From Methanosalsum zhilinae DSM 4017 (GTDB lineage Archaea; Halobacteriota; Methanosarcinia; Methanosarcinales; Methanosarcinaceae), in assembly GCF_000217995.1 (NCBI RefSeq), contig NC_015676.1:1345708-1409707 (forward strand): 64,000 nt of DNA, written 5' to 3'. The notes below the pieces were generated by a model, which worked only from the letters and a program-made list of their open reading frames with translations, made no database searches and had not been told where the DNA came from. Shown here one piece after another: positions 23,536 through 42,800 of the stretch; the stretch's first letter is position 1, and each line of letters opens with the position of its first letter. Both the position numbers and the translations under genes were made by a program.

Positions 23536-26097
23536 ATGTGGGGAAATAACGTGCTAAATATCAAAAAAGAACTAATTAGTAATATCGAAAAAGAATTGTA
23601 CGTTAAAGTGTTTCTAAATGAAGGAGTCATGGTTGAAGGTTACGTATCAAACTTTGATGATGATATGATCCTATTGAAAAATAAAAATGTTATTTCAGGT
23701 ATATCTCTAAGTTCAATACATTCATGGCAAGTCTATAATGATAAAGAGCAAAAAAATACACCACTTAAAGAAACTATATCTGATGAAGGCCAAAAAGAAA
23801 ACTACAACAAGATAAAGCTACAAGAGCCTTTTATTGATACATATAAAAAGCTATATTTATTCAAAGAATCAAACGATTCTATCCTTTTTAGAATGAATCC
23901 ATATGAGCCTATATCTAAAGTACCAGATTTCTTGAAAAATAATGATGATAGCTGTAGCAGGTCAATTTGGGATAGAGTTCTAGCTAAAATAAACATCCCT
24001 AATGTGCATAAAGATAAGGAAATCGAACAGCTTTCAAATGAATTTGCTACACTTCTAAAAAAATATCCGTCTCAAAGTATACTCGAATATAACCTTGGTT
24101 GCCTTAAACTAAAATCATCTAATTATCCTTCGGCAGCAAATCATTTTGACAATACTCATATTCTAAGTTCTGACAGAAAATCACTTTATAACTCAATTTA
24201 TGCTCATCTTCAAGCAGGTAACAAGGAAATGGTCACACTTAATTTAGCTAAATATCTTTATGCTGAAACTAATCTAATTGACAATAAATTTTGGTTTGAA
24301 TTTAGTTGTTTATGTAAAGAGAGCAAAGAGTACTGGATGTATACCTCAGTTGTTGATAGTATCTTAAATCATATAGAAGATATTGAAAACATTAATTTAA
24401 TATTTGGTTCACTCTTTTTTGTTTATGAGGACGTTTCTATTCTTCAAAATAAATTCCAAGAAAACGGTGAAGAAATAAAAGTGCTTAATAAAGATATGGA
24501 ATCTACAATAGCCGTTATCCAATCTTTTTTAGATGACGTTCAAGCAATGGACATATGGATCAAAAATGATAATTTCAATATTTGGATGATGGGAGAAAGT
24601 ACGGATTTAAGATCAGCAAAAGATACTGATATCACGCAGAATAATGATTCGTCTATTAACTTGGACTATGATTGGGAATATGATGTATTTAGGTTAAAAA
24701 GCCTATTCAATGAGTTTCATTATAATTTTAATCGAGGATCCATATATCGATGTATACCTGTAAGCCCTGATAATAAACTGGGTTATGGTTTTTTACGTGA
24801 TGATAGTACAATGAACGAAGTTCATTTCTTCTACGATAAAGTAATTGGACTTCAATACCTAACTACTACAGTCGAAATCAATGTTCCTGTACTTTATATG
24901 GCGGTACCTACAAATGAAAAAAATACATCTGTTGATTTATCAGCAACTATCATCATTCCAATTGAAACTTTGGATAATATTTGGGAATCAGCTTTTTTGT
25001 TTGCTAAAGAAAAAGATTATGAAAGTGCATTGAATGAACTGAATACCATCCTAAAATATCATCCGGAATATCCAGGAATAAATGATAGAAAGAAAAAATG
25101 GGAAAAGCTATTAGATAAAAATGAATGTCGTTTTAAAAGAAACTTTAATTTAAACTTTAAGCCAAAAAATGAACAAGATTGGACATGTTATATCAATACA
25201 TTATTTGATGAAAAACTTTATTCTGAAGCTATAAGTTATTATGATAAAATTTCAGCAACTCCAGCTAAATCTAGTTACTTATTTAGAATAGGTTTACATC
25301 ATTATCAGAAAAAAGATTTTAATGCAGCAATTAGTTTTTTGACAAAAGCAATTGATAAAAATCATTTTTATTATAATGCATATTTTGCAAGAGGATTAGT
25401 TTATTTTAAAATTGAGAAATACCATGAAGCTTTATCAGATTTTGCAAGAGCATTAGATCTCAGGCCGGATCATAAAGATGTATGGGTTCATTATGCATTA
25501 TCTCAACAACTCGTTGGTAAATATGATCATGCATTAAATAGTTATGAAAAAGCACAAGCAATCGATTCAACTGATTGGAATGTTCGTTCACTTAAAGCAG
25601 GGTTATATATAAAAATGAATAAGATTAGTGAAGCATTGAAAATTATTGATGATATTCTTGAAAATGGTGATCCAGAAAATCCAGAAACTTTGTTCTCTAA
25701 GGGCTATGCACTTCAAAAAATAAAAAAATATGACGAAGCCCTTTTTTACTTTGAAAAAAGTTTAGAGATTAAACCTAGCAACATTAAAGTTATCACAAAA
25801 AAGGCATACACATTAGCACGTCTTAACAGGTTCGATGAAGCTTTGTATGAAATTGACCATGCCATTAATATGAACCATTTTAATTCAAGGTCTTGGTATT
25901 ACAGAGGTGTGATTAATTACTTTGCAGGTAATTTTAAAACTGCTAAAAATGATTTTGAAGAATCACTGAAATTAAAACCAAATGTTTCACGCGTTGAAAG
26001 TTGTCTTGATAAAACCAAGTTGGAATTAAAAAGTATAAATGATGATGAGAATATAAAAGAATTAGTTAAAAATTGTAGTGATAAATGGTCACTTTAA
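23536..26097 (+). CDS. Large TPR-repeat protein
   Basis: The 853-aa product has multiple 34-aa TPR-like units in its C-terminal ~350 aa (repeated A..Y..A patterns, for example YYNAYFARGLVYFKIEKYHEALSDFARALDLRPD). The N-terminal 450 aa are unassigned. Confidence 0.55.
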   Translation: MWGNNVLNIKKELISNIEKELYVKVFLNEGVMVEGYVSNFDDDMILLKNKNVISGISLSSIHSWQVYNDKEQKNTPLKETISDEGQKENYNKIKLQEPFIDTYKKLYLFKESNDSILFRMNPYEPISKVPDFLKNNDDSCSRSIWDRVLAKINIPNVHKDKEIEQLSNEFATLLKKYPSQSILEYNLGCLKLKSSNYPSAANHFDNTHILSSDRKSLYNSIYAHLQAGNKEMVTLNLAKYLYAETNLIDNKFWFEFSCLCKESKEYWMYTSVVDSILNHIEDIENINLIFGSLFFVYEDVSILQNKFQENGEEIKVLNKDMESTIAVIQSFLDDVQAMDIWIKNDNFNIWMMGESTDLRSAKDTDITQNNDSSINLDYDWEYDVFRLKSLFNEFHYNFNRGSIYRCIPVSPDNKLGYGFLRDDSTMNEVHFFYDKVIGLQYLTTTVEINVPVLYMAVPTNEKNTSVDLSATIIIPIETLDNIWESAFLFAKEKDYESALNELNTILKYHPEYPGINDRKKKWEKLLDKNECRFKRNFNLNFKPKNEQDWTCYINTLFDEKLYSEAISYYDKISATPAKSSYLFRIGLHHYQKKDFNAAISFLTKAIDKNHFYYNAYFARGLVYFKIEKYHEALSDFARALDLRPDHKDVWVHYALSQQLVGKYDHALNSYEKAQAIDSTDWNVRSLKAGLYIKMNKISEALKIIDDILENGDPENPETLFSKGYALQKIKKYDEALFYFEKSLEIKPSNIKVITKKAYTLARLNRFDEALYEIDHAINMNHFNSRSWYYRGVINYFAGNFKTAKNDFEESLKLKPNVSRVESCLDKTKLELKSINDDENIKELVKNCSDKWSL

Positions 26098-26193: not shown

Positions 26194-26526
26194 ATGAATA
26201 AGTTTCTATTCGTATGTACTGGAAACCTGCAAAGATCACCAACTTTTGAGATATGGTTCAAAAAAAACCGTCCAGAGTATGAAGCAAAGTCTGCAGGAAC
26301 AAGAACATTGCATTTTGATCCTGATACTAACCAGGTCAATGATGAACTCTTAGATTGGGCAGATATAATTTTTTGTATGGACTTGGAACAGCATTTATAC
26401 ATATATATAAATCATCCAACATATCGTGATAAATTAGAAGTTATAGGGGTTTCTGATCAGTACGATAGATTTTCTTTAAGACTTATAGATATCATAGAGC
26501 ATTGGGTTCAGCTAAAGAGGCTTTGA
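26194..26526 (+). CDS. Low-molecular-weight protein-tyrosine-phosphatase-like protein (short)
   Basis: The N-terminal P-loop CTGNLQRSPTFE matches the LMW-PTP / ArsC CxGNxxRS signature. At 110 aa it is shorter than canonical enzymes. Confidence 0.5.
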   Translation: MNKFLFVCTGNLQRSPTFEIWFKKNRPEYEAKSAGTRTLHFDPDTNQVNDELLDWADIIFCMDLEQHLYIYINHPTYRDKLEVIGVSDQYDRFSLRLIDIIEHWVQLKRL

Positions 26527-26605: not shown

Positions 26606-28024
26606 TTATCGACTTTTATGGTCTGTGCATATTTGGCTCCACCAAACATGATAAGGAACTCCAGTATCTTTTTCATGTTTTGCTTTATAGTGTGCATCTA
26701 TTCCATCCCAACCATTCCCTTTAAATATATGATTACAAATTGGACACCTTCTTGGATGTGTGATGTTTTTACCCCAACATGGACAATTTGGATTGCAATT
26801 TTCATTCACTTCTTCTTTATAATTACTATTGTTAGCTGATACTAAATTACTTCTTTGAACTATGCTATCTTCAATGACTACATTCACATCACAATTACCA
26901 TTAACATCGCACATATCTAACAAATTAGTATGTTGTACAACAGAATCTTTGACATATACATTAACAATCTTATTTTTTGAGATTGATTCCAAAGTTTGCT
27001 TTAACTCTCTTCCAATTTCAGCAAGTAGACCAGTTAAAGAGTCAGCATTATTAGTCGCTGCAAATAATTCAATTCTATTATTTCCAGAGAAAATAGAAAT
27101 TTTGATAATAATATCGTTGTTGTTTACCTTAGTCTTACCGTAATACCATATCTCAGATCTTCTTTTATCTCTTGAACTTAATGTGCTCACATGCTTAATA
27201 TCATGTTTTTGGAGAACTTTATGACTCAGATGAGTAATATTGTTGATATCAAACCCATCACTTATCTCATAAATACGGTTATCTCTACTTGGAAGCTTTT
27301 CAATAAATTCTTTAAGTCTCCCAATATTGATGTCCTGATCAGTCTTCATGATAGGACAAATAACTCTTATCTCTTTTGGCTCCATCCATGTGGACTGCAT
27401 GTTCCCCATATAATTTTGATATAGAACAATGCATTTAATATCAGTAGCTTTAGAGCAAGTGAGAGGTTCAAATAGAATCGTTAATGTCTTCGATTTACCA
27501 CCAGGAATAGTATCCAAGATAAATTTACCATTTTTTTTAGAAATTTTTTCATTTTCAACTATATGCAATAAAGCTTCATCATAAATGAAGTCTAGAGAAA
27601 CGTCACTAATTACATATTGGCTTTCATTACTGACCGAAATCTTGAACCTAATGTAACCTTGATAGAATTCTGTTTCTCTTTTGATATTAATGGGAAAATT
27701 TGTATAAGTTTCTGTTTTATGAGTATTAATATTGAGGTTGTTTTTAAAGCTTTTATCTAAATTATTAAATTTAGATGATTTGGAACCTGTAGGAGACTCA
27801 AATGCAACCCATCCATCTCCAAGTGAAACTTTATGTTTCTCAGCACTATTCATGTTACCAAACCTGGTTGCTTTCTTTCCACCTATACTGGCAGCAGGTT
27901 TTTTATTTCCATATTCCCCATCCTTATAAACATATTTCACTCCTTGATGGCAACCCCGCTCTTTAGCTTCTTCCACGACACTTTTGGGTACCGTTTTCCC
28001 TAACTCATTCTTCATCAAATACAC
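26606..28024 (-). CDS. Paralogue 1 of an uncharacterised domain family with a C-terminal Cys/His-rich zinc-binding tail
   Basis: The central ~250 aa align with the N-terminal domains of the 33057 and 35044 proteins (TLTILFEPLTCSK...EPKEIRVICPIM, then VKDSVVQHTNL / IEDSIVQRSNL). The tail is CNPNCPCWGKN...CPICNH...H...H. Confidence 0.5.
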   Translation of the reverse strand: MYLMKNELGKTVPKSVVEEAKERGCHQGVKYVYKDGEYGNKKPAASIGGKKATRFGNMNSAEKHKVSLGDGWVAFESPTGSKSSKFNNLDKSFKNNLNINTHKTETYTNFPINIKRETEFYQGYIRFKISVSNESQYVISDVSLDFIYDEALLHIVENEKISKKNGKFILDTIPGGKSKTLTILFEPLTCSKATDIKCIVLYQNYMGNMQSTWMEPKEIRVICPIMKTDQDINIGRLKEFIEKLPSRDNRIYEISDGFDINNITHLSHKVLQKHDIKHVSTLSSRDKRRSEIWYYGKTKVNNNDIIIKISIFSGNNRIELFAATNNADSLTGLLAEIGRELKQTLESISKNKIVNVYVKDSVVQHTNLLDMCDVNGNCDVNVVIEDSIVQRSNLVSANNSNYKEEVNENCNPNCPCWGKNITHPRRCPICNHIFKGNGWDGIDAHYKAKHEKDTGVPYHVWWSQICTDHKSR

Positions 28025-28054
28025 CTTTTTTTGTCGTTGAACTCATGTTTACTT

Positions 28055-29254
28055 CTAAATTTTAAATTTGTTAGTAATATACATAGAACTTCCAAAACCA
28101 AGTTCAATTATCCTATTTTCATTTAGTAGTCTATCAATCAGGTCTTTTGAAGATTTTAAATTCAGTCCAGTTTCCTTGGAAAGGTCATTCACAGTAAACT
28201 TTTCATTTTGGCCTAAAAATGTATTGATAATTTCATCTAAAGAATATATATTATCAATCTTGTTATGCCAGAAAGAAAAATAAGTACTGCAGTTCACATT
28301 TTGATTGAATACAATAACATCGTGGTCAAGTTCATATAACAATAGAATTAAGCGAGGATGCATATATTCTCTAGCCCAAATCGTAATATCTTTATTCCAG
28401 CTAGAATTGATAAGACATAATGTTAAATATTGATTCTTGGGAACCGAACTAGAAATTGATTGTACGTATTTAATTATTTGAGTTAGATCATTTATAGGGT
28501 ACCATACAGTATTCAACTTAAGTTTTATATTCAAAATCCCATCTTTTATCTTTCCAGTAATACTTTCTGAGGATACGTCAACTATCCATTTGTTTGAACC
28601 AACATAATCACCATTGGGTGTCATCTCTGGCTGATGATCTGAGTATTTACATTCAAGGCAATTAATATAAGTATTTAATTTAGATAACGTTTGAGGGGTA
28701 AATTTTTCTTCAATATTTTTGTGGTCCATATTTGTGTCAGTAGTAGTAGTAGTAGAGAAATTATTAGTAAAAGTACTATTGTCAATCACAGAACAATTAA
28801 TATTATGATCTTCATTACTAAGGTTTAAATTGGCTTTGCAATTAAAATTATCAACAACTATCTGCTCAATCTTAATTCGATTTTTTATAGTTTTTTCAAA
28901 ATCAAATAGGTCCTGCTCTATTGAAAATGCATCAATATCCCTGGTAAGCATCTCCATAGTTTTAGCAAGTCTTGACGAAACATCTACAAGTTCGTGTTCT
29001 CTCTCATAAAACTGGTCAAGATCACCATCATCTGATCCAAATTTGTATGTATTAGCAGAATCCATATCTAATATTAGCTGAGAGATAAGAGCCCTGATAT
29101 CCCTTAGTTTGCAGCTGGTTTCTATATCCTTATTATGATACGTTCTCTGGATCAGCCGTTCTACAGTTTTATGTGCTCCTTTTAGTGAATTAAACGCAAT
29201 CTGAGTATTATTTTTTTGAATTTGTAGAAGCTCGCTAGGAACATTTTTTTTCAT
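28055..29254 (-). CDS. Hypothetical protein with a probable C-terminal winged-helix
   Basis: This 399-aa ORF lies in the same operon as the AAA ATPase. It contains a Thr run encoded by (AGT)n and a C-terminal segment LSKETGLNLKSSKDLIDRLLNENRIIELG. Confidence 0.4.
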   Translation of the reverse strand: MKKNVPSELLQIQKNNTQIAFNSLKGAHKTVERLIQRTYHNKDIETSCKLRDIRALISQLILDMDSANTYKFGSDDGDLDQFYEREHELVDVSSRLAKTMEMLTRDIDAFSIEQDLFDFEKTIKNRIKIEQIVVDNFNCKANLNLSNEDHNINCSVIDNSTFTNNFSTTTTTDTNMDHKNIEEKFTPQTLSKLNTYINCLECKYSDHQPEMTPNGDYVGSNKWIVDVSSESITGKIKDGILNIKLKLNTVWYPINDLTQIIKYVQSISSSVPKNQYLTLCLINSSWNKDITIWAREYMHPRLILLLYELDHDVIVFNQNVNCSTYFSFWHNKIDNIYSLDEIINTFLGQNEKFTVNDLSKETGLNLKSSKDLIDRLLNENRIIELGFGSSMYITNKFKI

Positions 29255-29294
29255 AGGCCAGACCTACCCTATCTTATTTTTATTATGTTTGATA

Positions 29295-30476
29295 TTAAGC
29301 TACACGTTCAAGTATGTCTTTAAAAATGCTTTCTTCGCCGCTATTTTTTATTGACCTTTGAGCTCCAATATACCAACTTTTTATTGAGGGACTTCTACGC
29401 AGAATGACTGTAGTAAAATCTCTGAGCTCAATATTGCGTATAAGTCCACCTTTTAATGCTTCATTTAGTGGTATATCCGCTGCTTCCTTACAAATTGATG
29501 AAATATCAGCACCAGAATATCCCTCAGTGTTTGCTGCTAGCTCATCCAGGCATAAATGTGGGTCGATCGGTCTTGACTCAAGATATATATTAAAAATAGC
29601 TAATCTTGCATCATGGTCGGGTTCAGGTATGAAAAGAAGTTTACTAAACCTACCAGGTCTTCTTAGCGCGGGATCAATATTCCACGGTTCATTTGTAGCT
29701 GCAAGGACAAGAATATCACTGTCAATTTGCTCGACACCGTCCATTTGTGCTAGCAACTCGTTGACCATTCTTTTAGAATAGTCTTTACTATCACTTCTTT
29801 TCCCAGCAATAGAATCAATCTCGTCAAAGAAAATTATAGCCTTTTTCGATTTCCTGGCAGTCTCAAATATCTGTTTAATATTTTTTTCAGATGATCCTAC
29901 CCATTTACTAACTATATTGCTGGTCTTTACATTAATGAACTCAGCATCACATTCTTTAGCAGCTGCTTTTGCCATAAGGGTCTTGCCACAACCAGGGGGT
30001 CCATATAGAAGTATACCTTCTCCTGCTTTTTGGCCATAGTGCTGGTATAGTTCTTTATGTGTAAATGGATATATCATAGCTTTACGAATATCTTCTTTTA
30101 CATCATTTAATCCACCAATGTCATCAAAACCTATTTTTGGTATTTCTTTTAAAACAAAATCGCTTTTTGATATAGACTCTTCATCTTGTTGATCGTTGAA
30201 ATTATGATTTTCAGTCTCAACCTTAGTTGAATTGGGTGAATTGCTCTTAAGTGACTGTGCTTTTGAAAATAGGTGTTGTGCAATGTCACGCTGAGTGTTA
30301 CGTTCGGTTCTATCAGTATTTATGCTGGATGCTTCATTGTACAGTTTAGAAGACTTAAGGTACAGTTCTCTAGCTTTTACAAACTGTCCCTTATCTTCAA
30401 AATCTTTTGCAGCTTTTGAATAGCCCCGCGCTTGAGCAGCTAATTTTATAGCAGATGTCAATTGAGTACCCCACAT
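29295..30476 (-). CDS. MIT-domain AAA+ ATPase (Vps4/CdvC-like, meiotic-clade AAA)
   Basis: The N-terminal ~75 aa form a three-helix MIT-like module (AIKLAAQARGYSKAAKDFEDKGQFVKARELYLKSSKLY...). The AAA core carries Walker A GPPGCGKT, Walker B IIFFDEID, sensor ATNEPWNIDPALRRPGRF and a C-terminal helix. Confidence 0.75.
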   Translation of the reverse strand: MWGTQLTSAIKLAAQARGYSKAAKDFEDKGQFVKARELYLKSSKLYNEASSINTDRTERNTQRDIAQHLFSKAQSLKSNSPNSTKVETENHNFNDQQDEESISKSDFVLKEIPKIGFDDIGGLNDVKEDIRKAMIYPFTHKELYQHYGQKAGEGILLYGPPGCGKTLMAKAAAKECDAEFINVKTSNIVSKWVGSSEKNIKQIFETARKSKKAIIFFDEIDSIAGKRSDSKDYSKRMVNELLAQMDGVEQIDSDILVLAATNEPWNIDPALRRPGRFSKLLFIPEPDHDARLAIFNIYLESRPIDPHLCLDELAANTEGYSGADISSICKEAADIPLNEALKGGLIRNIELRDFTTVILRRSPSIKSWYIGAQRSIKNSGEESIFKDILERVA

Positions 30477-30518
30477 ACGGTTCCTTACTTATACTCATTA
30501 ATTTACATTAAATCAGGA

Positions 30519-31091
30519 TTACTCATTTTTTTCAATCTCAGAATTGATCTTTTTTGCTAGTTCATCCTGCTCAGAAGTTTCGCTACTAAGCTCTGCCAAA
30601 AGTTCAGACCTTAAAGAATCCTGCATGTCATTGAGTTCTTCACTACCTCCCATAGCTGCATCCATTGTAGTTGTCATCATTGTACTTGCAGTATTAACTT
30701 TATCCATCGACATACGGATGTTAGTAACAGCGCTTTCAAGCTTATCTGTATCAAATCCAAGTTGTTTTTGCCAATGACCTAGATCTTCTCCGATAGATAC
30801 CACTTCTTTAAGGCCCATTTGCATTTCTATAACATCTTTCATAGACTGAGCCATTTCAACCATGCTGCTTATGGTATTAACTTGTCCTTCCACCAAAGAA
30901 TATCTCCTTGACGCAACCCTGTACTCTCGGTCATTACCGCTAGCTAAAGCTTCTTTTGCTTCTTCACGCGCTTTTTTTTGTTTGGATTTAAGTTCCTTTT
31001 CTCTTGTGGTAAGTCTTTGCTCAGAAACTGCTAATTTTGTTTTAAGTTCATCAGGAGACACTTCTTTTTTGAAAGGGTTCTTAATATTCAT
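30519..31091 (-). CDS. ESCRT-III/Snf7-like (PspA/Vipp1/ESCRT-III superfamily) coiled-coil protein
   Basis: The 190-aa product has a basic N-terminus (KNPFKK...KELKSKQKKAREEAK) and a long helical hairpin. Its C-terminus is acidic (SEELNDMQDSLRSELLAELSSETSEQDELAKKINSEIEKNE) and resembles an MIM-like tail. It lies immediately upstream of the MIT-AAA ATPase. Confidence 0.5.
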   Translation of the reverse strand: MNIKNPFKKEVSPDELKTKLAVSEQRLTTREKELKSKQKKAREEAKEALASGNDREYRVASRRYSLVEGQVNTISSMVEMAQSMKDVIEMQMGLKEVVSIGEDLGHWQKQLGFDTDKLESAVTNIRMSMDKVNTASTMMTTTMDAAMGGSEELNDMQDSLRSELLAELSSETSEQDELAKKINSEIEKNE

Positions 31092-31246
31092 TACATCTCA
31101 TCCTCCATTTTGTTCTGTTTTGCATATCTTATGCAAATTTTTAGAGCCTCTGAACGGTTGATAGCTATTCCCATTTCCACTAATTTATCAAGATAATCCT
31201 TACTATCTTCTGAGACTCTTGCACTAACTGGATATGATCTACCCAT
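31091..31246 (-). CDS. Ribbon-helix-helix (CopG/Arc-like) small DNA-binding protein
   Basis: A beta-strand (RSYPVSARVSEDSKDYLDKL) is followed by helices (GIAINRSEALKICIRYAK). The likely start is the internal Met, which would make the ORF-track start at 31294 over-extended. The stop overlaps the start of the ESCRT-III-like gene. Confidence 0.45.
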   Translation of the reverse strand: MGRSYPVSARVSEDSKDYLDKLVEMGIAINRSEALKICIRYAKQNKMEDEM

Positions 31247-31342
31247 ATTTCTCACATTTAAATTTTTGTACCTACTGTATACAATGGAAAACATTATATA
31301 TAATACTTACTAAATAATTATATCAAGTATATTCATTTTAAG

Positions 31343-32644
31343 GTGGTATTGTTAATAATGACATTCAAATGGCAACGTGACAAGGATGAAGTCGCGAGAC
31401 TTATTCCTAAAAAAATAGTTAAAGGGATTTTCAATAAACAGATTATACTGTCACCAAATGAAAGAGCTGTTCTTGTCAAAAATGGAGTAGTACAGGAGAC
31501 AATCACTGATGGTAAGCTAAGTATTGGTGGCTTGCTCAACTTTAGGTCAATTGGAAAAGATATTGATATTGTGTTATTAGACATTAGTCCAAAAGATATC
31601 TCATGGGAAAAAGAAGAGTTATGGACTGCAGATTCTCATAAGGTCAACTGTAAAGGTATACTAAGGCTCAGGATAATAGATCCTACAAAAACTTTCAAGA
31701 TGCTTTATGGTCATATGGTTGCTGAAAGTGATAATGGAAAATCATTATCAACTAAAGATATCTATACTGTCTTCGAAAGTGAATTGCTTTCACATGTACT
31801 TGAACCTGAAGTGAGAGCCTTAAATGCCCAGGAACTTTATGGTAATAAAGACATACAAGTAAAGATGGAGAGCGAGCTTGAAGTAAAACTTAAATCAACT
31901 CTATCTCTATGGGGTCTTGAGCTTCTCAAATATAATCTACAATGGGACCTTGGTACCTATGAAGATATCATGCATGCAAACCAAGAGTTTCAAGTAAAAG
32001 AAGAAATTGATGAACTTGAGACTCTTGCTGTCGAGGGTGAAGCTGAAAGAACTGGAAGGCTGAATGTAGCTCGGATTCGAGCTGACCAAGCACTTTCTAG
32101 TGAAAAAAACAATTTTGTACGTGATCAGAAATATAAAGATGTTAGATCTCAAGTAGGTATTGAGAAAATGCAGTTCGAAGCTGATATACAACAAGCAAGA
32201 GAAGCTATCGCATTAAAAGAGGAGCTAAAACTTGCAAAAACTCGAGGTAAAAGGACAGAACTTGAAGTCGATCAAGATATGAGAGACCGTGAGCATGGTA
32301 GAGATCTTGAGTATTTGAGTAAACTCGCTGAAGCCGGTGGTCCCGAAGTAGCTAAGACTGTTAGTGAGGGTAGAGAGTTAAGTAGAATGACAGCAGAACA
32401 AATCGAAGCAATTGCTAAAGTAAAACAGAGTGAAGTCTTAGCTAGAGAGAATAAAATCGAGTTTATGAAAGAGGTAGAAGACCGTGAACGCATGAATTCA
32501 TACAGGCGCCAGGAACTCGATGCTGCAATGATGTCTGCTGCAAATAGCAATGATAAGTATATAATTTCTAAAAAATGCTATGAATGTGGTACAAGAATAT
32601 CTTCAGATGCAAGATTTTGTAGCCAATGTGGGAGAACACTCTAA
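31343..32644 (+). CDS. SPFH/band-7 (flotillin/stomatin-like) protein with coiled-coil and a C-terminal zinc ribbon
   Basis: The SPFH core reads ERAVLVKNGVVQ...LRLRIIDPTKTFKML...TKDIYTVFESELLSHVLEPEVRALNAQELYGNKDIQ...LWGLELLKYNL. A long charged coiled coil follows, then CYECGTRISSDARFCSQCG. An alternative start lies at 31358. Confidence 0.6.
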   Translation: MVLLIMTFKWQRDKDEVARLIPKKIVKGIFNKQIILSPNERAVLVKNGVVQETITDGKLSIGGLLNFRSIGKDIDIVLLDISPKDISWEKEELWTADSHKVNCKGILRLRIIDPTKTFKMLYGHMVAESDNGKSLSTKDIYTVFESELLSHVLEPEVRALNAQELYGNKDIQVKMESELEVKLKSTLSLWGLELLKYNLQWDLGTYEDIMHANQEFQVKEEIDELETLAVEGEAERTGRLNVARIRADQALSSEKNNFVRDQKYKDVRSQVGIEKMQFEADIQQAREAIALKEELKLAKTRGKRTELEVDQDMRDREHGRDLEYLSKLAEAGGPEVAKTVSEGRELSRMTAEQIEAIAKVKQSEVLARENKIEFMKEVEDRERMNSYRRQELDAAMMSAANSNDKYIISKKCYECGTRISSDARFCSQCGRTL

Positions 32645-33056
32645 AAATATTTATATAATTAAATTGTTTTATTTTTTAACTCAAAGAAATTAAGATTTTG
32701 ATTCATTTATCAGTATCATTTATTATTCCTTATATATAAAAATAAATTAAATTGTAGTGAAGGCTTAAACTAGATTGATATGATTAAAGATGCAAATGAA
32801 AATAACCCTTTAAGCAACAGGACATAATAAGTTATAAAGTGATGACGAATTATCATTTTAATAAATACATAGATTGTGTCACCATTTTGCTGTAAACTCT
32901 TCTGTCTTTCACTTTACTTAACTAGTCAATATTTATCTGTACGTATCTATACTTAGAGCTTGGATTACTGATAGAGTAGTTCTTTTTTAAATTTAAGGAA
33001 ATCGAACTATTCCAAAATATACTTATAGTCTGAAACTATCTACTTTTAGAAACAAA

Positions 33057-34943
33057 ATGACAGATATTGACATTAAAAGAGGTTATGAGATTTTAACTGA
33101 TAATAGTTTAAGGTTAGGTATTCGTATAACTAACAACACTAATTCAGTTATTAATAAAGTGCAAGTACTACTTGACTATAACGACTCTTTATTTCAGCTC
33201 ATAGGTGAACGATTTCAGAGTGTTGATAGTATTCCCCCAACTGTTCCTAGAACACTCGAATTTATTCTGAAACCAATTGGATGTGTTCATAAAGAATATA
33301 TTGAAGCCACCATTACATATCGTGATCAAGAATGGAAAAAGCATATCTTGACGATGGAACCTAAAGAAATTCATTGTGTATGCCCATTCTTACGAGCAAA
33401 ACCAATGTCAACTTCTAAATTCCTAGAAATATTTTCTACAGGAACTTCGGTTGATAAAGGATTGAACATTGATGGGATTGGTATAGATAAGATTAGATCT
33501 ATGTTCATGGAAACATGTAATAATCGGTTATACCAGGTTGCAGAGCGCAATATAGAAGACGGAAAAATCTTATATTTATCTAGCGAGTCCATTGGTGAGA
33601 AAGCAACTTATCTGCTTACTGTTTTGATTAAAGAAAATTCGGGTATTACTCAGGTAATGTTAAGGGCAGTTTCAGATAAAGAGCATGGATTGCATGGATT
33701 TGTTAATGAGATTATCACAGAAATACAACATTTAATATCTACACAAAATTCTGCAAAAGAGATTGGCCATATTAAGAACGAACAGGTAATAAACATTATA
33801 GATTCTGTTGTTCAAAGGAGTAATTTTGAAACCCGCGACAATAAAAAGAATATTAATGTCGAAGAGAGCATAATTCAAAGCAGTTCTTTTACAGGCCTTC
33901 CAAGTAAATCCAATTTTTCTGGAATGGAAGATATTAGTCTACATATGGATAAACCAGTAAAAAATGAAGATAATATAAATGCACTTTCTTCCCAAAAAGA
34001 ATATGCAAATTACTCTTCAAAAAGAGGTTTGTCTTTAAAAGATTCAGGCAAATCAATAATTCCTTATATAGGTGCAATTGGACTTATATTGGTATCTTCA
34101 ATTGTTTTTATTTCTTTCATGGGTTTTGAGCCTGTATCTGATGTAGATGTGAGTTCAAATTTAATGGCTCAAGAAAAAGATATGTCAGCTACAATTGGAT
34201 ATGTTACATGGGATGGAGAAGTTGCAAGTACAAATGTAATGAAGCAGGTACTTGAACAGGCAGGATATGATGTAGAGATCATAGCTGTGGATGCAGGACC
34301 TCTTTATCAGGGACTTGCACAGGGCCAGTTTGACTTTACCACCTCAGCATGGCTTCCACATACCCACGGTCACTACATGGACCAGTATGGTGACAACTTT
34401 GTAGAAGTATCCACAAATCTTGAAGGCTGTAAGATCGGTCTTGTGGTACCTCAATATGTAACTATTGATTCAATCGAAGAGATGAACGATGTAGTCGATG
34501 AGTTTGATGGAAGGATTGTGGGTATTGAACCAGGTGCCGGTATTATGACCGCAACCGAGAATGCAATTGATGTATATGATCTTGAATATGAACTTGTGGC
34601 AAGCAGCAGTGCAGGCATGGCTGCAGAACTCAGGACCGCAGTAGCCAATGATGAATGGGTTGTTGTTACCGGCTGGAGCCCTCACTGGAAATTTGACCGC
34701 TGGGAACTGAAATACCTTGAGGACCCAGAACTGGTCTATGGTGAGGAAGAATATGTTGCAACCCTTGCACGTGCAGGACTCCAGGAAGATAAACCAGAAC
34801 TCTATGACATAATATCAAGATTCTACTGGACCCAGGATGATATCCAGTCTGTTATGATGGATATTGAAGAGGGAATGGCTCCTGAGGATGCTGCTGCAAA
34901 GTGGGTGCGAGAAAATTCTCATAAAGTTAATAGATGGATATGA
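33057..34943 (+). CDS. Paralogue 2: N-terminal uncharacterised domain, single TM, and C-terminal OpuAC-like glycine-betaine-type solute-binding domain
   Basis: The N-terminus (MTDIDIKRGYEIL...HCVCPFL...IIDSVVQRSNF...VEESIIQSSSF) is shared with the 35044 and 26606 proteins. The TM helix is IPYIGAIGLILVSSIVFISFMGF. The C-terminal ~280 aa resemble ABC glycine betaine/proline SBPs (GYVTWDGEVASTNVMKQVLEQAGYDVEI...WLPHTHG...GIEPGAGIM). Confidence 0.6.
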   Translation: MTDIDIKRGYEILTDNSLRLGIRITNNTNSVINKVQVLLDYNDSLFQLIGERFQSVDSIPPTVPRTLEFILKPIGCVHKEYIEATITYRDQEWKKHILTMEPKEIHCVCPFLRAKPMSTSKFLEIFSTGTSVDKGLNIDGIGIDKIRSMFMETCNNRLYQVAERNIEDGKILYLSSESIGEKATYLLTVLIKENSGITQVMLRAVSDKEHGLHGFVNEIITEIQHLISTQNSAKEIGHIKNEQVINIIDSVVQRSNFETRDNKKNINVEESIIQSSSFTGLPSKSNFSGMEDISLHMDKPVKNEDNINALSSQKEYANYSSKRGLSLKDSGKSIIPYIGAIGLILVSSIVFISFMGFEPVSDVDVSSNLMAQEKDMSATIGYVTWDGEVASTNVMKQVLEQAGYDVEIIAVDAGPLYQGLAQGQFDFTTSAWLPHTHGHYMDQYGDNFVEVSTNLEGCKIGLVVPQYVTIDSIEEMNDVVDEFDGRIVGIEPGAGIMTATENAIDVYDLEYELVASSSAGMAAELRTAVANDEWVVVTGWSPHWKFDRWELKYLEDPELVYGEEEYVATLARAGLQEDKPELYDIISRFYWTQDDIQSVMMDIEEGMAPEDAAAKWVRENSHKVNRWI

Positions 34944-35043
34944 TATTATTTCAAAACCTAATTACATTAACATGCATCCTCACAGTTATTAAATAAAATT
35001 AAATAATATCAATCCTAAATAAATTTTAGAGTTAATCATATAT

Positions 35044-36693
35044 TTGGAGAAATCCATGGCGGATATTGATATTAAAAGAGGGTATGAGATACTGCCAGAC
35101 AACAGTATCAAATTTGGAATTAGAGTCACTAACAATACGGTAACTACTATTTCTGAAGTTGAAACTATTTTGGATTACTCGGAAGAACTTTTTAAATTAG
35201 AGGGGGTCAAAATTAAACGGTTAGGTCAGCTTCCACCAAAATCTGAACGTACTGCTATATTTATCTTAAAACCATTAACATGCATTCATAATGAAAAAAT
35301 CACGGCAACCGTTCTTTACAAAGATTCTAAGTGGGAACTGAACGTTGAAAAGATGAAAAGTAAATGTGTTGATTGCGTTTGTCCTTTTCTAAAAGAGAAA
35401 CAATTAAGCCGAAAACATTTCATTGAAAAAAACTCACATGGAAAATCACTAAAACAATATCTTTATTTTAAAGGCATTTCTACCTCTCACCTGATCTCAC
35501 TATTAAACGATGTTTGTGCTAATCGCTTATATAAAATTGAAGAATTTGAATTCAATGATGGGATAATGGTATATTATTCTGCCGAGTCAATCAGTGATAA
35601 TGTAGATTATCTATTAACAGTTTTTGTAAAAAATATAGATGATCTTTGCGTAGTATACTTTAAAGCAGCATCAAATAAAGAGCATGGTTTATCAGGCTTC
35701 TTGAGCGAGATCTCATCAGAACTTAATCAAGTTGTTAGTACTGTAAAAAGTGCACAGGAAATTAGCTTTGTAAAAAAAGAAAATATAATCAACATTAAAG
35801 ATTCTGTAATTCAACGAACAAATTTCAATAATAATCAGGATGTTTCAAATCTATGCATAGAAGATAGTGTTATACAAAACACTCATTTTTCTTCAACTAA
35901 ACCTTCTAATAGCATAGACAATGAATATACAAGTCCCTTCGAATCCATTGAATCAGAAAACTCTGGCACAAATAGTGAATATTTTAGCGAAAAAAAGAGA
36001 GCAAATAATTTTGACAATAAAAAAACTTTTTTTTCAATATTCTTTCTACTTGTTATAATTTTGTCCATGGTACCTTTATTCGAAACCACATACGAAGTAA
36101 AAAAACCGATCTACACAACTGAAACATATATCAGTACTGAGCCACAAGAAAAAATCGAAACTTACATAGAACAAGAACCTTATGAAGTTTTAGAACAAGA
36201 TTCGCGTACTATAGTTGATGAAAAAAGAACAGTTAGACCTGGTTACTATCTTTATTTTAAAAGATATATAGATAGTGATAGCAAAGTTAAAAATACTATC
36301 ACTGGCAAAATTGTTGAAACTGCAGGCTATGATATAAATTTTTTTGTTTTCGATGAAACTAATTTTAAAAATTGGGCAAGTGGCTCTTCTTCTTCAAGGT
36401 ACGTTAGTGCTACAAGAGTTAGTTCACATAATTTCCAATTTACTCCAAAGCAATCTGGGAACTATTATTTTGTCTTAGATAATCGATATTCATGGTTCAC
36501 TAATAAAGTTCCTGAGATTACGGTTGAATGGAAATATGAGCACATTTTAACAAAATATCGAGATGTTGAAAGAGAAAGAACAATAATAGAATATGTAGAT
36601 GTTGAGAAAGAGAGGGAAGTCACAAAATATGTTGCTGTTCAAGATAAGAAAAAGGCAAATTTAATTGAACTCTTAGTCGCTCATGATTGGTAA
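35044..36693 (+). CDS. Paralogue 3: N-terminal uncharacterised domain, single TM, and C-terminal beta-rich ectodomain
   Basis: The N-terminus reads MADIDIKRGYEILPDNSIKFGIRVTNNT...DCVCPFL...IKDSVIQRTNF...IEDSVIQNTHF. The TM helix is FFSIFFLLVIILSMVPLF, and the C-terminal region is Tyr/Thr-rich. The start is probably at 35056. Confidence 0.5.
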   Translation: MEKSMADIDIKRGYEILPDNSIKFGIRVTNNTVTTISEVETILDYSEELFKLEGVKIKRLGQLPPKSERTAIFILKPLTCIHNEKITATVLYKDSKWELNVEKMKSKCVDCVCPFLKEKQLSRKHFIEKNSHGKSLKQYLYFKGISTSHLISLLNDVCANRLYKIEEFEFNDGIMVYYSAESISDNVDYLLTVFVKNIDDLCVVYFKAASNKEHGLSGFLSEISSELNQVVSTVKSAQEISFVKKENIINIKDSVIQRTNFNNNQDVSNLCIEDSVIQNTHFSSTKPSNSIDNEYTSPFESIESENSGTNSEYFSEKKRANNFDNKKTFFSIFFLLVIILSMVPLFETTYEVKKPIYTTETYISTEPQEKIETYIEQEPYEVLEQDSRTIVDEKRTVRPGYYLYFKRYIDSDSKVKNTITGKIVETAGYDINFFVFDETNFKNWASGSSSSRYVSATRVSSHNFQFTPKQSGNYYFVLDNRYSWFTNKVPEITVEWKYEHILTKYRDVERERTIIEYVDVEKEREVTKYVAVQDKKKANLIELLVAHDW

Positions 36694-38014: not shown

Positions 38015-38560
38015 TTATTGAGCAAAGTATTCTTTTAAGCGATACATTGTTACATAGTCTAAGTATTCCACATTATCATATTTTGCACATTCATCAATCA
38101 TTAACTGGGATGTTGTATCCTGAATTCCGACTACAACGATTTGTTTTTGTAGTTTATACATGGAAATATGACGGACAACAGGAACGAAATCTTTATCTCC
38201 ACTCACCAAAAAAAATGTGTTGATATGCGGCTGTTCATACAATATTTTTAACATATCGCAAATAATCATTGGGTCTGCAAGACTTTTTTTATCTCCACCA
38301 GGAATTTCAAAAGATGGAGCATATTCAGTCTTGATACCTTTTAAGTAAAGATTGTATTGTAGACTACGATTATGTTTGCGTGTAGTATCTAAGTATAGAT
38401 TGCTTAACACAATATGGCCATATTTTTTAGCTTCATCTACTATAATGTCAAAGTCACAGTATGTGTTGATAGCTTCATGTGACCCAATGTTAATATTGTC
38501 ATAATCAATGAACATGGCGACATTTGATCCATCTGTTTCTGAGCTAGCCATTTGGATCAC
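38015..38560 (-). CDS. NYN-domain (LabA/DUF88-like, PIN-fold) putative RNase
   Basis: An N-terminal VAMFIDYDNI motif and downstream FLVSGDKDFVPVV match the NYN acidic-residue pattern. Its start overlaps the stop of the upstream gene by 4 nt. Confidence 0.6.
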   Translation of the reverse strand: MIQMASSETDGSNVAMFIDYDNINIGSHEAINTYCDFDIIVDEAKKYGHIVLSNLYLDTTRKHNRSLQYNLYLKGIKTEYAPSFEIPGGDKKSLADPMIICDMLKILYEQPHINTFFLVSGDKDFVPVVRHISMYKLQKQIVVVGIQDTTSQLMIDECAKYDNVEYLDYVTMYRLKEYFAQ

Positions 38561-39853: not shown

Positions 39854-42800
39854 TTGTGTAACTTCAAATGGAATTATGGAGTTGGGGTATTGGAGTTAAA
39901 CCGTGATTGTGATTCTGGGGTAAATGAAAATGAATACAGATCTCAGCAGCAACTAAAGAGTCATTCAACTGATAAAAAAAGTGATGCTGTAAATTATTCC
40001 AATGAAAAGGAAATACTTCAGAGAATTGAAGATTTATTGACCGATATCATAAAAAAGAAAACTGAGTTGCAGCTTGATACTTTCTTTAATCATTTAAATG
40101 ATGAACATGAGAGTTATTATAATTACGGTCTTGGTTTATTCTATTTAAAGCAAAATGACAAGAAGAGGTCATTGAAACATCTTTTATTCTCATACGACCA
40201 ATTCAAAGCCACTGATAAATATGTCAGTGCCGCAATTGCATGTTCGAAAAGCATTGAGCAGAATCCTAAAAATGCTGAATTGCATAGAAGGATGGCAGAG
40301 ATGCATCATCAATATGGTGCTTACAAAAAATCACTTGACTCGTATCTTGAAGCTATAGAGATATACAAGCAACAAAGAGAATGGACAAAAATAAAAAATC
40401 TATGTAATATTGCAGAATCGATCGATTCAAATAATCCTCTAATTTGTGAGATGTATGGGTATGCTTACAAGAACACTGCCGGAAAAAAGCCTGAAGCTAT
40501 AAGCTACTATGAAAAAGCAAAGCAGATATATCTTAACTGTGGACAAAAAAAAGATGCTGAAAGGTGTAACAAAATAATGAATGAGATAATGTCAAGTTCG
40601 CGGGTTCAGGAACTTGATATTTCATATTTCACATCATATAAAAGAGATAACATTAATACAGTAGCTATAAGTGACGGCATACCTGTTGATGAATGGATAA
40701 ACAGTAATCATACCAGTTCAAATGTATTAAAATTAGCCGAATCTGATGATATGCTATTGGATTATGATATTTATAAAGTGGATCGATCCATATGTCTTAC
40801 CTTGGAAAGGACCAATGGAAGTTATAGACAATCATATTCAAAACTTGAGGATTTTTTCTTAAACCTCTTTTTCGAGATGCTTAGTCTAAGACAAGAGTCC
40901 TTTAATGATAGTAACAAGAGTTTCAACTATGATGAGTATTATACCGTGAAATCAGAATTCCTTGAGTTCAGGCAAATAATAAATCAGGCATTGGGTCAGG
41001 CTTACATGAACCAGGATTCTAGTTCTATTGGCACGATCTATACCACCCCTGCACTCTCATTATTGAAGAAACTGCTCAAATCAATTGACCCTGACCTTAA
41101 TGAGGTACAGCTGGAATATATTGAGCAAGCTAAACATATTGCTGTACCAGGGAGTGCTTTATTTTACTTAGAACTGTTCACTCAATTAAAAAGAAAGGAT
41201 ATTATCTTAAAACTGCAGAGGTACACCAGTGATTATGGTTATAATGAGATATCGGGTTTGATTGATATACCTGTACTCCTTCTCAAACCATGGGACCATC
41301 AACTGGAAGCTTTCAAAGCATGGAAGAACAATCGATCAAGAGGAATAGTTGAAATGGCTACTGCAACTGGTAAGACTGTAGTCGGGTTCATGGCAATAGA
41401 AAATTTAGTGAACACAAACCAAAAGAATAGAAAAATAATTGTTCGGATAATAGCAAGTTCTACAGCTATACTGAACCAATGGAGACGTGAACTCATAGAG
41501 AAAATGGGGTTAATGGCAGATCCGAAATTAGATTATACATCCAGTATAATCTGTAAGGGTGCTCATATTAATTTCCAAACAGTTCAGCTTGTTATGAAAA
41601 GACCCGAGAGTTATGCATGTGATCTTTTAATAGTGGATGAAGTACACCATTTTGCTGCGGAATCTTTCAGAAACGCCTTAAAAGTTCCAACACCCAGAAA
41701 AATGGGTCTTTCAGCTACAATTGAAGGTAAAACTAAACTAGATTATTTGGCTAAATATCTGGGTCCCATAATTTATAGGTTCGACCTTGAAAGTGCAATT
41801 AAAGCCGATATACTCCCTAAGTTCGAGTGGAAATTGAATGTGGTATACCTTTCAGTAACAGAAGAAGAGGATTTTGAACAAATATCAAAACAGATATTAT
41901 CATTATTCAACCAAGTTTCAAAGGATTATGCTACTATCAGGAAGATAAGTAAATCTGAGATTACTATCACTAACTTATATCATTTTGTAAGATTAACTGA
42001 AATTGCTAGATATAAAAAAATAGGATTGCCAGATGAATGGAAGGCACTGCAGGCTAAATTGCAGGAAAGAAGGTGGATCATCCATAGGTCACAACCTAAG
42101 ATCAACAAGGCAATTGAACTTGCTTCTTACTATCTGGAACTAAAAAAGAAAATAATCCTTTTTGTCATGGATATTAATACTTGTGATCTGGTGGCCAGTG
42201 AACTAGAAAAGAAATACTCGAATGTTTATGTAGCACATTCCAGAATGAAGGATGCTAATAGAAGCATACTATATTTCAAGAAGGCGGCTTCGGGGATACT
42301 CATTGGAGCTAAGATGCTTGATGAAGGTATTGATATACCCGATGCAGAGGTTGGGATAAATGTATCCTCTACTGAATCCAAACTACAGCTTGTACAGAGG
42401 CTAGGTAGAGTATTAAGGAAAAAAGAGAATAAAATTCCGATATTCCATCATTTCATTGGACTACCTTCAACTGGCTCTTATGTGAATTATGAAGATAATA
42501 TCAAGTTTATGGAAGAGCTGTCTAATATCCAGGATATTGCGCTTCATTTAGGTGTTGAGACGGAGATGAATTACGAGACTGATCAGCTCCTAGATGTTCA
42601 TAACAGTGCCGAAACAATGGTCCATGAAACTAATTTTGGTGATAAGGTAGGTACTTTATATTTAGGTAATATTCTAAAACAATTTAAAGAAAAAGAAGTC
42701 CACCAAACCATATTGAGACGATTGGGCCTATTTGATCCTGATAAAAAGATATCAGATGAGGAATGGAGGCAGATAGTGCGAGAAGCGTTTGGAATTAAAG

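What the first reader, a model, noticed from the sequence alone, without database searches (positions are those of the whole stretch)
26606..36693. Three paralogues of an unrecognised ~250-aa domain with conserved C-x-C-P and tandem DSV(I/V)QRxNF motifs, each fused to a different output domain, bracketing the membrane-remodelling cassette
Proteins 26606-28024(-), 33057-34943(+) and 35044-36693(+) share a domain that begins (M)xDIDIKRGYEIL...LxYxxxLF in the two plus-strand copies. All three carry a T/G-C-x-H/K...EPKEI/MKSKC-x-C/ICP-F/I-L/M block and two copies of a short [IV]x[DE]S[IV][IV]Q[RNH][ST][NHS][FL] motif. The fused outputs differ. One copy has a Cys/His-rich zinc tail, one has a TM helix plus an OpuAC-like solute-binding ectodomain, and one has a TM helix plus a Tyr/Thr-rich beta ectodomain. 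I cannot assign the shared domain to any family from memory. Triplication with domain shuffling next to ESCRT-III/Vps4/SPFH suggests cargo, adaptor or sensor roles. One example would be a receptor that couples extracellular ligand binding to membrane remodelling.
Basis: seen in the sequence. Interest (0 to 1): 0.8.

Follow-up and report, generated by a model that had tools for sequence, protein, structure and literature searches.

The report
Known archaeal adaptin-like ESCRT receptor module
The three proteins really share a ~285-residue module, but it is the adaptin-appendage-like domain already published in 2024 from this exact Methanosalsum zhilinae ESCRT locus; what is new here is a third copy hidden by a truncated gene model and two conserved sequence signatures the paper does not describe.

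Summary
A (26606-28024, -), B (33057-34943, +) and C (35044-36693, +) share about 285 residues (BLASTP 3e-13, 3e-19, 2e-84). Six DSV(V/I)Q motif hits occur in the window, all in these proteins, against about 0.07 expected.

Additions to the paper:
- B is a third family member. The paper treated it as stand-alone ProX because RefSeq truncated the gene.
- B's OpuAC ectodomain is a recent, Methanosalsum-specific copy of a core-genome binding protein.
- The tandem VINIIDSVVQR(S/T)xF hairpin and a Cys/His signature (CHHCCPCH) are family-wide but undescribed.
- The family has 602 representatives at E<=1e-10. Its members are single-pass receptors, mostly encoded away from ESCRT genes.

The function (ESCRT-linked cargo receptor or adaptor) remains inferred.

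The parts
26606..28024 (-). Protein A (472-aa ORF; 469 aa from the annotated start at 28015) = WP_013898571.1 / Mzhil_1280. Soluble paralogue: N-terminal ~108 aa of unknown fold, appendage-like region, tandem motif, Cys/His zinc tail.
   Evidence: no hydrophobic stretch (maximum KD19 1.16)
26984..27700 (-). A: adaptin appendage-like region (aa ~109-347). A-type signature C-K-R-V-C-P, lacking the His/His/Cys of the B/C type.
   Evidence: BLASTP alignments; signature table; HHpred 98% to 2IV8_A for residues 100-340 in the published table
26843..26947 (-). A: tandem motif segment (VKDSVVQHTNL ... IEDSIVQRSNL).
26609..26812 (-). A: Cys/His-rich tail (aa ~405-472), including CPIC-x14-H-x4-H. The paper calls it a Zn ribbon.
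   Evidence: sequence
33057..34943 (+). Protein B (628 aa) = AEH61140.1 / UniRef100_F7XN28. Third paralogue. RefSeq models are truncated: 274 aa starting at 34119 in the paper's table, and a 512-aa model, WP_245527528.1, starting at residue 117.
33057..33776 (+). B: appendage-like region (aa 1-240): beta-sandwich 1-107 plus alpha/beta platform 112-240.
33282..33386 (+). B: Cys/His signature C76-x-H78 ... H106-C107-V-C109-P110, together with C154 and H225 further on. Candidate metal site.
33801..33890 (+). B: tandem motif segment (VINIIDSVVQRSNF - loop - NINVEESIIQSSSF).
34056..34124 (+). B: single TM helix (aa 334-356). Lys/Arg lie before it and Glu/Asp after it, so N-terminus in, C-terminus out.
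34191..34913 (+). B: OpuAC glycine-betaine-type binding ectodomain. GC 0.446 against 0.319 for the N-terminal part.
35044..36693 (+). Protein C (549-aa ORF; 545 aa from ATG 35056) = WP_013898578.1 / Mzhil_1287.
35056..35775 (+). C: appendage-like region.
   Evidence: HHpred 98% to 5NZR_B and 2IV8_A in the published table
35800..35889 (+). C: tandem motif segment (IINIKDSVIQRTNF ... LCIEDSVIQNTHF).
36025..36081 (+). C: single TM helix (aa 328-346).
36298..36573 (+). C: GOLD/p24-like ectodomain.
   Evidence: PF01105, 1.8e-5
28055..29254 (-). Coiled-coil plus C-terminal winged-helix protein (399 aa, WP_013898572). It lies immediately upstream of A; the same gene pair occurs in all six ESCRT-linked loci examined.
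29295..30476 (-). Vps4-type AAA ATPase with a weak MIT match.
30519..31091 (-). ESCRT-III (Snf7-like).
31343..32644 (+). SPFH plus coiled coil plus zinc-ribbon protein.

Best explanation
Identity (shown, about 0.9). A, B and C are three paralogues of the archaeal adaptin appendage-like family (arCOG15284) in the published 'Meth_adaptin' ESCRT locus of Methanosalsum zhilinae. The shared module is an IG-like beta-sandwich plus a TBP-like platform, followed by a very conserved tandem 'VINIIDSVVQR(S/T)xF' segment. B and C are single-pass membrane proteins. The module faces the cytoplasm and a ligand-binding domain faces outward: a betaine-type OpuAC in B and a GOLD domain in C. A is a soluble copy with a zinc tail. 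Mechanism (inferred, about 0.45). The cytoplasmic module acts as a docking platform that links these proteins to the machinery encoded between them. The most likely direct partner is the coiled-coil/winged-helix protein, which would then lead to ESCRT-III and Vps4. The receptors and whatever their ectodomains hold would thereby be gathered at sites of outward membrane budding, scission or repair. The tandem motif is the best candidate for the contact surface, and A would be a soluble adaptor.
Against: No experiment exists for any component. Only about 6 of 61 distinct family loci have ESCRT genes within 10 kb. Methanolobus psychrophilus and M. tindarius have family members, but no Vps4 is listed for them in the published table. 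The module therefore cannot depend strictly on ESCRT. The proposed contact with the wH protein rests on gene order alone. I could not run a complex prediction. B's ectodomain is a very recent acquisition, so its role may not be settled.
Confidence: 0.6

Rival explanations
1. The module is a general cytoplasmic signalling or oligomerisation domain of single-pass archaeal receptors and works independently of ESCRT. In M. zhilinae the three copies merely lie beside the ESCRT genes, or they feed an envelope or osmotic-stress signal into them, with B sensing external betaine.
For: Most family loci lack ESCRT neighbours. Some genomes have the family with no Vps4 listed. The family shows typical receptor architectures in both orientations, with varied ectodomains: FGE-sulfatase-like in 24 of 43 of one type, plus flagellin/pilin-like, S-layer, PEGA, PQQ propeller, laminin-G, CARDB and TPR. 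For the osmotic theme: B binds betaine-type ligands, and the Vps4 orthologues of Methanoperedens loci carry a diadenylate cyclase domain. From general knowledge, c-di-AMP controls osmolyte uptake.
Against: Family genes are interleaved with ESCRT genes in six independent loci, with a conserved wH-family gene pair. No output domain such as a kinase, cyclase or DNA-binding domain is fused to the module itself. Eukaryotic appendage domains are interaction hubs of vesicle coats, not signalling enzymes.
Confidence: 0.28
2. B is a recent, non-functional chimera, and only the short OpuAC part is expressed, as in the RefSeq model. There would then be only two working paralogues.
For: The OpuAC part is 98% identical to the stand-alone M. 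zhilinae binding protein AEH61545.1 and has a different base composition from the rest of the gene. RefSeq chose internal starts.
Against: The ORF is uninterrupted for 628 codons, and its N-terminus aligns from residue 1 with homologues. The same fusion, including TM helix and OpuAC start, occurs in M. natronophilum, where the N-domain has diverged to 76% identity; that indicates selection on the fused gene. The RefSeq start at 34119 falls at the end of the TM helix and would give a binding protein with no export signal or anchor.
Confidence: 0.05
3. The locus belongs to an anti-virus defence island, and the three proteins are surface sensors of a defence system.
For: The locus lies in a low-GC island (about 21.5-52.5 kb) that has a tyrosine integrase, a transposase, a Druantia DruE helicase (1724 bits) and a PbeA-like helicase.
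Against: None of A, B, C, the wH protein, ESCRT-III or SPFH matches any PADLOC model; Vps4 gives only generic AAA matches. No relatives were found in viral contigs. Co-location in an island is weak evidence.
Confidence: 0.05

Closest known systems
[quoted passage not shown] 2024, mBio 15:e00335-24)
   Same: A and C are the two example proteins of that paper (WP_013898571.1 and WP_013898578.1), and the window is the example locus. The domain assignment, GOLD, SPFH, the wH protein and the cargo-sorting idea are all published.
   Different: The paper counts two appendage proteins plus a stand-alone ProX, whereas the full-length gene makes ProX the ectodomain of a third member. The paper does not mention the DSVVQR tandem motif, the Cys/His signature, the FGE-sulfatase-dominated receptor family, or the fact that most members lie outside ESCRT loci.
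Eukaryotic AP-2 alpha/beta2, AP-4 beta and COPI beta/gamma appendage ('ear') domains
   Same: Both have a two-subdomain fold, a beta-sandwich followed by a TBP-like platform. These domains are the best structural matches in the PDB by two methods. They are protein-interaction hubs in vesicle formation.
   Different: Sequence identity is only 9-14%, and plain HMMER detects no similarity. The subdomain orientation differs (rmsd 6-13 A, TM about 0.3). The archaeal domain is not attached to a HEAT-repeat trunk by a hinge. It sits directly on membrane receptors and carries its own conserved C-terminal motif pair. I did not test whether the peptide-binding pockets (for DPF/W, FxDxF and WxxF motifs) are conserved.
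Eukaryotic p24/TMED cargo receptors
   Same: Like C, they are single-pass proteins with a GOLD domain on the non-cytoplasmic side and a cytoplasmic part that meets coat proteins.
   Different: p24 proteins have a short cytoplasmic tail that binds COPI/COPII. In C the cytoplasmic part is itself a coat-appendage-like domain. The orientation in the chain is also reversed: the GOLD domain is C-terminal.
OpuAC/ProX glycine betaine binding proteins of ABC transporters
   Same: B residues 375-628 are 98% identical to the M. zhilinae stand-alone binding protein and match L. lactis OpuAC at E=7e-68.
   Different: There are no adjacent permease or ATPase genes. The domain is anchored by a TM helix to a 330-residue cytoplasmic module instead of a signal peptide or lipid anchor.

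Membership tests
Adaptin/COPI appendage domain (fold level) | N-terminal IG-like beta-sandwich subdomain | tested here: met
   The model has eight strands over residues 4-107 at high confidence. They align to the sandwich subdomains of adaptins, GGA/GAE and TRAP-beta.
Adaptin/COPI appendage domain (fold level) | C-terminal TBP-like alpha/beta platform directly following the sandwich | tested here: met
Adaptin/COPI appendage domain (fold level) | Detectable sequence homology to adaptin ear families | tested here: inconclusive
   HMMER with a 76-sequence profile against PDB sequences, and Pfam scans, find nothing. The published HHpred probability is 98%. I could not run HHpred against PDB or Pfam.
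Adaptin/COPI appendage domain (fold level) | Peptide-motif binding pockets on the platform and sandwich (conserved Trp/Tyr) | not tested
Adaptin/COPI appendage domain (fold level) | Attachment to a HEAT/solenoid trunk through a flexible hinge | tested here: not met
   The domain starts at residue 1 in B and C and is followed by a TM helix. A has only about 108 unrelated residues before it.
arCOG15284 / Meth_adaptin ESCRT system | Sequence membership of the family | tested here: met
   A and C are listed members. B is 44% identical to C over 286 residues, E=2e-84.
arCOG15284 / Meth_adaptin ESCRT system | Neighbourhood containing Vps4, ESCRT-III, SPFH and a coiled-coil/wH protein | tested here: met
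   The same set recurs in L012, L013, L019, L021 and L053.
OpuAC substrate-binding domain (B ectodomain) | Full-length match above the Pfam threshold and to solved betaine-binding proteins | tested here: met
   PF04069 at 2.3e-70 and 237.6 bits, covering profile positions 4-257 of 257; 3L6G at 7e-68.
OpuAC substrate-binding domain (B ectodomain) | Works with an adjacent ABC permease and ATPase | tested here: not met
   The ORFs I scanned against Pfam between about 20 and 52 kb gave no ABC-transporter (OpuAA/OpuAB-type) match; not every ORF in that stretch was scanned.
GOLD/p24 domain (C ectodomain) | Match to PF01105 | tested here: inconclusive
   25.3 bits, just under the 25.9 cut-off, E=1.8e-5. 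The published HHpred probability is 98%.

The most novel reading that the evidence does not exclude
The tandem VINIIDSVVQR(S/T)xF segment would be an archaeal counterpart of a 'late domain'. It would be a portable peptide element by which hundreds of different single-pass receptors recruit the winged-helix/ESCRT-III/Vps4 machinery. In Methanosalsum the betaine-binding receptor B would make this an osmolyte-responsive membrane-remodelling system. That would fit the diadenylate cyclase domain fused to Vps4 in the Methanoperedens versions.
Probability: 0.15. Interest if true: 0.75.

Novelty: already known. Interest (0 to 1): 0.35.

Why it matters
The system matters for the origin of eukaryotic vesicle traffic, because coat-appendage, GOLD, SPFH and ESCRT parts sit together in a methanogen. 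That point has already been published. This check adds a corrected parts list. ProX is not a free binding protein but the outer domain of a third receptor. The receptors share an unusually conserved motif pair and a probable metal site, both of which give concrete targets for mutagenesis. The family is large and mostly unlinked to ESCRT genes, which cautions against reading every member as an ESCRT component. The check also shows how start-site choices in automated annotation hid the domain, both here and in at least one related locus.

Tried and rejected
1. Pfam, NCBIfam and PADLOC scans of the shared region found no match.
2. A 76-sequence HMM against all PDB sequences gave only low-complexity hits such as poly-Q TBP and huntingtin. 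Plain sequence methods do not reach adaptins.
3. Single-sequence AlphaFold of C gave pLDDT 42 and was unusable, which cost one of two jobs. The alignment-based run succeeded.
4. A profile of the motif segment alone, searched against 5.8 billion proteins, returned only 45-95-residue proteins. These carry the end of the platform helix plus the motifs, with or without a zinc ribbon, and are probably fragments or truncated calls. I found no evidence that the motif occurs on unrelated proteins.
5. A viral contig scan found no relatives.
6. The defence-system reading was rejected for lack of any model match beyond generic AAA.
7. All-against-all clustering of 832 ORFs around 64 loci found no neighbour family shared by more than 8 loci. 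Apparent Fic and T2SSE/PIN neighbours reflect synteny among close relatives.
8. The search for other appendage-OpuAC fusions found none outside Methanosalsum.
9. I could not measure Cys/His distances or motif packing, because model coordinates are not exposed.
Full report
**Observation**

The three ORFs are present as stated. A three-way alignment and pairwise BLASTP show a shared region of about 285 residues:
- A-B: 22% identity, E=3e-13.
- A-C: 28% identity, E=3e-19.
- B-C: 44% identity over 286 residues, E=2e-84.

The short motif occurs six times in the six-frame translation of the whole window. There are two copies in each protein and none elsewhere. Shuffled sequence gives 0.06-0.08 on average.

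- A has no hydrophobic helix and ends in a Cys/His-rich tail.
- B has one TM helix and an OpuAC domain (Pfam 2.3e-70).
- C has one TM helix and a beta-rich ectodomain that scores as GOLD/p24 (1.8e-5, just under the Pfam cut-off).
- In both B and C, basic residues precede the helix and acidic residues follow it. The shared module should therefore be cytoplasmic and the C-terminal domains external.

**Where the window comes from**

Exact-sequence look-up identifies A as WP_013898571.1 (Mzhil_1280) and C as WP_013898578.1 (Mzhil_1287). The 628-residue B is GenBank AEH61140.1 / UniRef100_F7XN28. All are from Methanosalsum zhilinae DSM 4017. Every gene coordinate in the published neighbourhood table equals the window coordinate plus 1,345,707.

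**What is already known**

Makarova et al. 2024 (mBio 15:e00335-24; PMC10936438) describe this locus as the representative of a 'Meth_adaptin' ESCRT system. According to the paper, the locus holds Vps4, ESCRT-III, an SPFH/coiled-coil/zinc-ribbon protein and a coiled-coil/winged-helix protein. [quoted passage not shown] These two are WP_013898571.1, with a zinc ribbon and an uncharacterised N-terminal domain, and WP_013898578.1, fused to GOLD through a TM linker. The paper lists a separate ProX gene as well. The supplementary tables give HHpred probabilities of 98% to COPI beta (5NZR_B) and AP-2 beta (2IV8_A) appendages, and they place the family in arCOG15284. A full-text search found no later paper on the subject.

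**Independent test of the fold**

Plain HMMER does not reach adaptins. No Pfam, NCBIfam or PADLOC model matches the shared region, and a 76-sequence profile against PDB sequences returns only low-complexity noise. A single-sequence AlphaFold run failed.

With an alignment of 76 homologues, the model of B residues 1-300 has mean pLDDT 80.6. It is confident over residues 1-240, showing a beta-sandwich (strands 4-107) and an alpha/beta platform (112-240).
- The top 16 Foldseek matches are all COPI or AP-2 appendages. They align over 233-250 columns spanning both subdomains, at E=1e-9 to 1e-6. BBSome and TRAP-beta hits follow.
- The high rmsd and low TM-score show that the relative orientation of the two subdomains differs or is poorly predicted.

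The published assignment therefore stands.

**The third paralogue**

The paper's table lists ProX as WP_048815665, at record positions 1379826-1380650. That equals window 34119-34943, or 274 residues, and it leaves about 1.5 kb upstream without a gene. Another RefSeq model in the collection, WP_245527528.1, has 512 residues and starts at Met117 of the full-length ORF.

In the window the ORF is open from 33057, and its first residues align with the N-termini of homologues. The 34119 start falls at the last residues of the TM helix, which would give a binding protein with no signal or anchor. The partial M. natronophilum homologue has the same order (module, motifs, TM helix, OpuAC start), and its module has diverged to 76% identity. 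B is therefore a real third family member. ProX is its ectodomain, not a free binding protein.

The ectodomain is young:
- It is about 98% identical to the stand-alone M. zhilinae binding protein AEH61545.1.
- Its GC content is 0.446 (GC3 0.357), against 0.319 (GC3 0.232) for the rest of the gene.
- No other module-OpuAC fusion appears among 380 strong relatives.

The closest solved structure is the betaine-bound L. lactis OpuAC (E=7e-68).

**Signatures not described in the paper**

Across homologues the most conserved stretch of the whole protein lies just after the platform. It reads V-I-N-I-I-D-S-V-V-Q, each position at least 90% conserved. It is followed by R-(S/T)-x-F, a glycine-rich loop and a second copy, VNIxDSVVQRTEF. 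AlphaFold gives this stretch low confidence. In every architecture it lies between the platform and whatever comes next: a TM helix, a zinc ribbon or the chain end. The paper's HHpred queries stop at residue 220 for C and residue 340 for A, before the motif pair in either protein, and its text has no 'DSVV'.

A second signature is C76, H78, H106, C107, C109, P110, C154 and H225. This 'CHHCCPCH' pattern is present in 131 of the roughly 190 distinct domains tabulated. The A-type loses H78, H106 and C107 together (C-K-[SKR]-V-C-P). A third type keeps only C109-P110. The joint loss suggests one metal site in the B/C type. This is an inference, because I could not inspect coordinates.

**The wider family**

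A profile search of 1.84 billion representative proteins finds 1029 members at E<=1e-3, 602 at E<=1e-10 and 160 at E<=1e-30. In 63 genomic loci, from Methanolobus, Methanosarcina, Methanoperedens, ANME-2 and other Methanosarcinales, I found 102 ORFs with the domain, often in tandem. Two mirror-image architectures dominate:
- Module, TM helix, ectodomain. The ectodomain is FGE-sulfatase-like in 24 of 43; others are flagellin/pilin-like, S-layer or cyclophilin.
- Signal or TM helix, ectodomain, TM helix, module, zinc ribbon. Here the ectodomains are PEGA, PQQ propeller, laminin-G, CARDB or TPR.

This is a receptor-like family with a constant cytoplasmic module.

**Link to ESCRT**

Only about six of 61 distinct loci carry clear Vps4, ESCRT-III, SPFH or wH homologues within 10 kb: L012, L013, L019, L021, L053 and possibly L062. 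In five of these loci (L012, L013, L019, L021, L053) and in the window (six loci in all), the coiled-coil/wH gene is directly followed by a family gene. In two of them Vps4 is also directly followed by a family gene.

Against a strict link, the published table lists family members for Methanolobus psychrophilus and M. tindarius but no Vps4 for them. Complete Methanolobus genomes also show solitary family genes. Clustering of 832 neighbouring ORFs found no other recurrent partner.

**Most likely mechanism**

Shown:
- The fold, the topology and the ligand-binding ectodomains.
- The conserved motif pair.
- Interleaving with ESCRT genes in six loci.

Inferred:
- The module docks the receptors to the ESCRT machinery, probably through the wH protein, and the motif pair is the contact.
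- B and C, with whatever they bind outside, are collected where ESCRT-III and Vps4 bud or repair the membrane.
- A acts as a soluble adaptor.

I put the identity at about 0.9 and this mechanism at about 0.45.

The main rival (about 0.28) is that the module is a general receptor domain independent of ESCRT, perhaps part of an envelope or osmotic-stress response. Two observations support it: the many unlinked family members, and the osmotic hints below. The other rivals are minor: a non-functional chimera for B, and a defence-system reading.

**Verdict**

The shared domain is already known, and from this very locus. The increments are a third paralogue hidden by annotation, two undescribed conserved signatures, and the breadth and ESCRT-independence of the family. 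They are useful but modest.

Noticed in passing
window 32645-34118 (upstream part of B); record NC_015676.1 1378352-1379825: RefSeq gene models of B are truncated. The model used by the 2024 paper has 274 aa and starts at 34119; another RefSeq model, WP_245527528.1, has 512 aa and starts at Met117. The GenBank/UniProt model (AEH61140.1, F7XN28) has the full 628 aa. The truncation hid the third appendage-like domain.
   Followed up: yes
window 34179-34943: The OpuAC part of B has GC 0.446 (GC3 0.357), against 0.319 (0.232) for the rest of the gene. It is about 98% identical in protein sequence to a stand-alone binding protein encoded elsewhere in the genome (AEH61545.1). This points to a recent intragenomic copy or gene conversion into the receptor gene.
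   Followed up: yes
window ~21500-52500: The ESCRT locus lies in a low-GC island (0.324, against 0.385 and 0.394 in the flanks). The island has a tyrosine integrase at 20299-21429, a DDE transposase at 51445-52164, a Druantia DruE helicase at 43151-49165 (1724 bits), a PbeA-like helicase at 39854-42898 and an NYN-domain gene at 38015-38560. There is no tRNA gene in the window. This may be a horizontally acquired island.
   Followed up: partly
L019:8253-9935, L053:14485-16164, L046:11831-13627, L010:932-2722: In Methanoperedens loci the Vps4 orthologue (51-52% identical to the window's Vps4 over 98% of its length) carries a C-terminal diadenylate cyclase (DAC, PF02457, 57-59 bits) domain. A second AAA/Vps4_C/DAC paralogue sits directly upstream of family genes. 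The 2024 paper does not mention this, and the fusion is absent from the window. It suggests a link between this ESCRT type and c-di-AMP signalling.
   Followed up: partly
window 28055-29254 with 26606-28024; L012:3789-7129, L013:7468-9693, L021:8792-11509, L053:7334-10843, L019:1234-5148: The coiled-coil/winged-helix gene is immediately followed by an appendage-family gene in all six ESCRT-linked loci examined. This makes it the best candidate for a direct partner.
   Followed up: partly
L003:11528-13456 (called gene 12707-13459): The same kind of start-site truncation occurs in a Methanoperedens assembly. The public gene call is a 250-aa FGE-sulfatase protein, but the open frame is 643 aa with the appendage-like module and a TM helix in front.
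   Followed up: partly
proteins P0048, P0068, P0077, P0087, P0097, P0336: Several relatives with no OpuAC domain (P0336 has an FGE-sulfatase domain; most others have no Pfam hit) are named 'glycine betaine/proline transport system substrate-binding protein' in JGI. The name was apparently transferred from the M. zhilinae fusion protein through the shared N-terminal module.
   Followed up: no
window 26194-26526 (+): A short (110 aa) low-molecular-weight phosphatase-like gene (CTGNLQRS motif; Pfam LMWPc matches only residues 4-39) lies convergent to A, 80 bases away. It is not conserved in the other ESCRT-linked loci.
   Followed up: partly
window 23536-26097 (+): An 853-aa TPR protein lies immediately upstream of the locus. 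Some family members elsewhere carry TPR domains themselves. Related loci gave only generic TPR matches.
   Followed up: no
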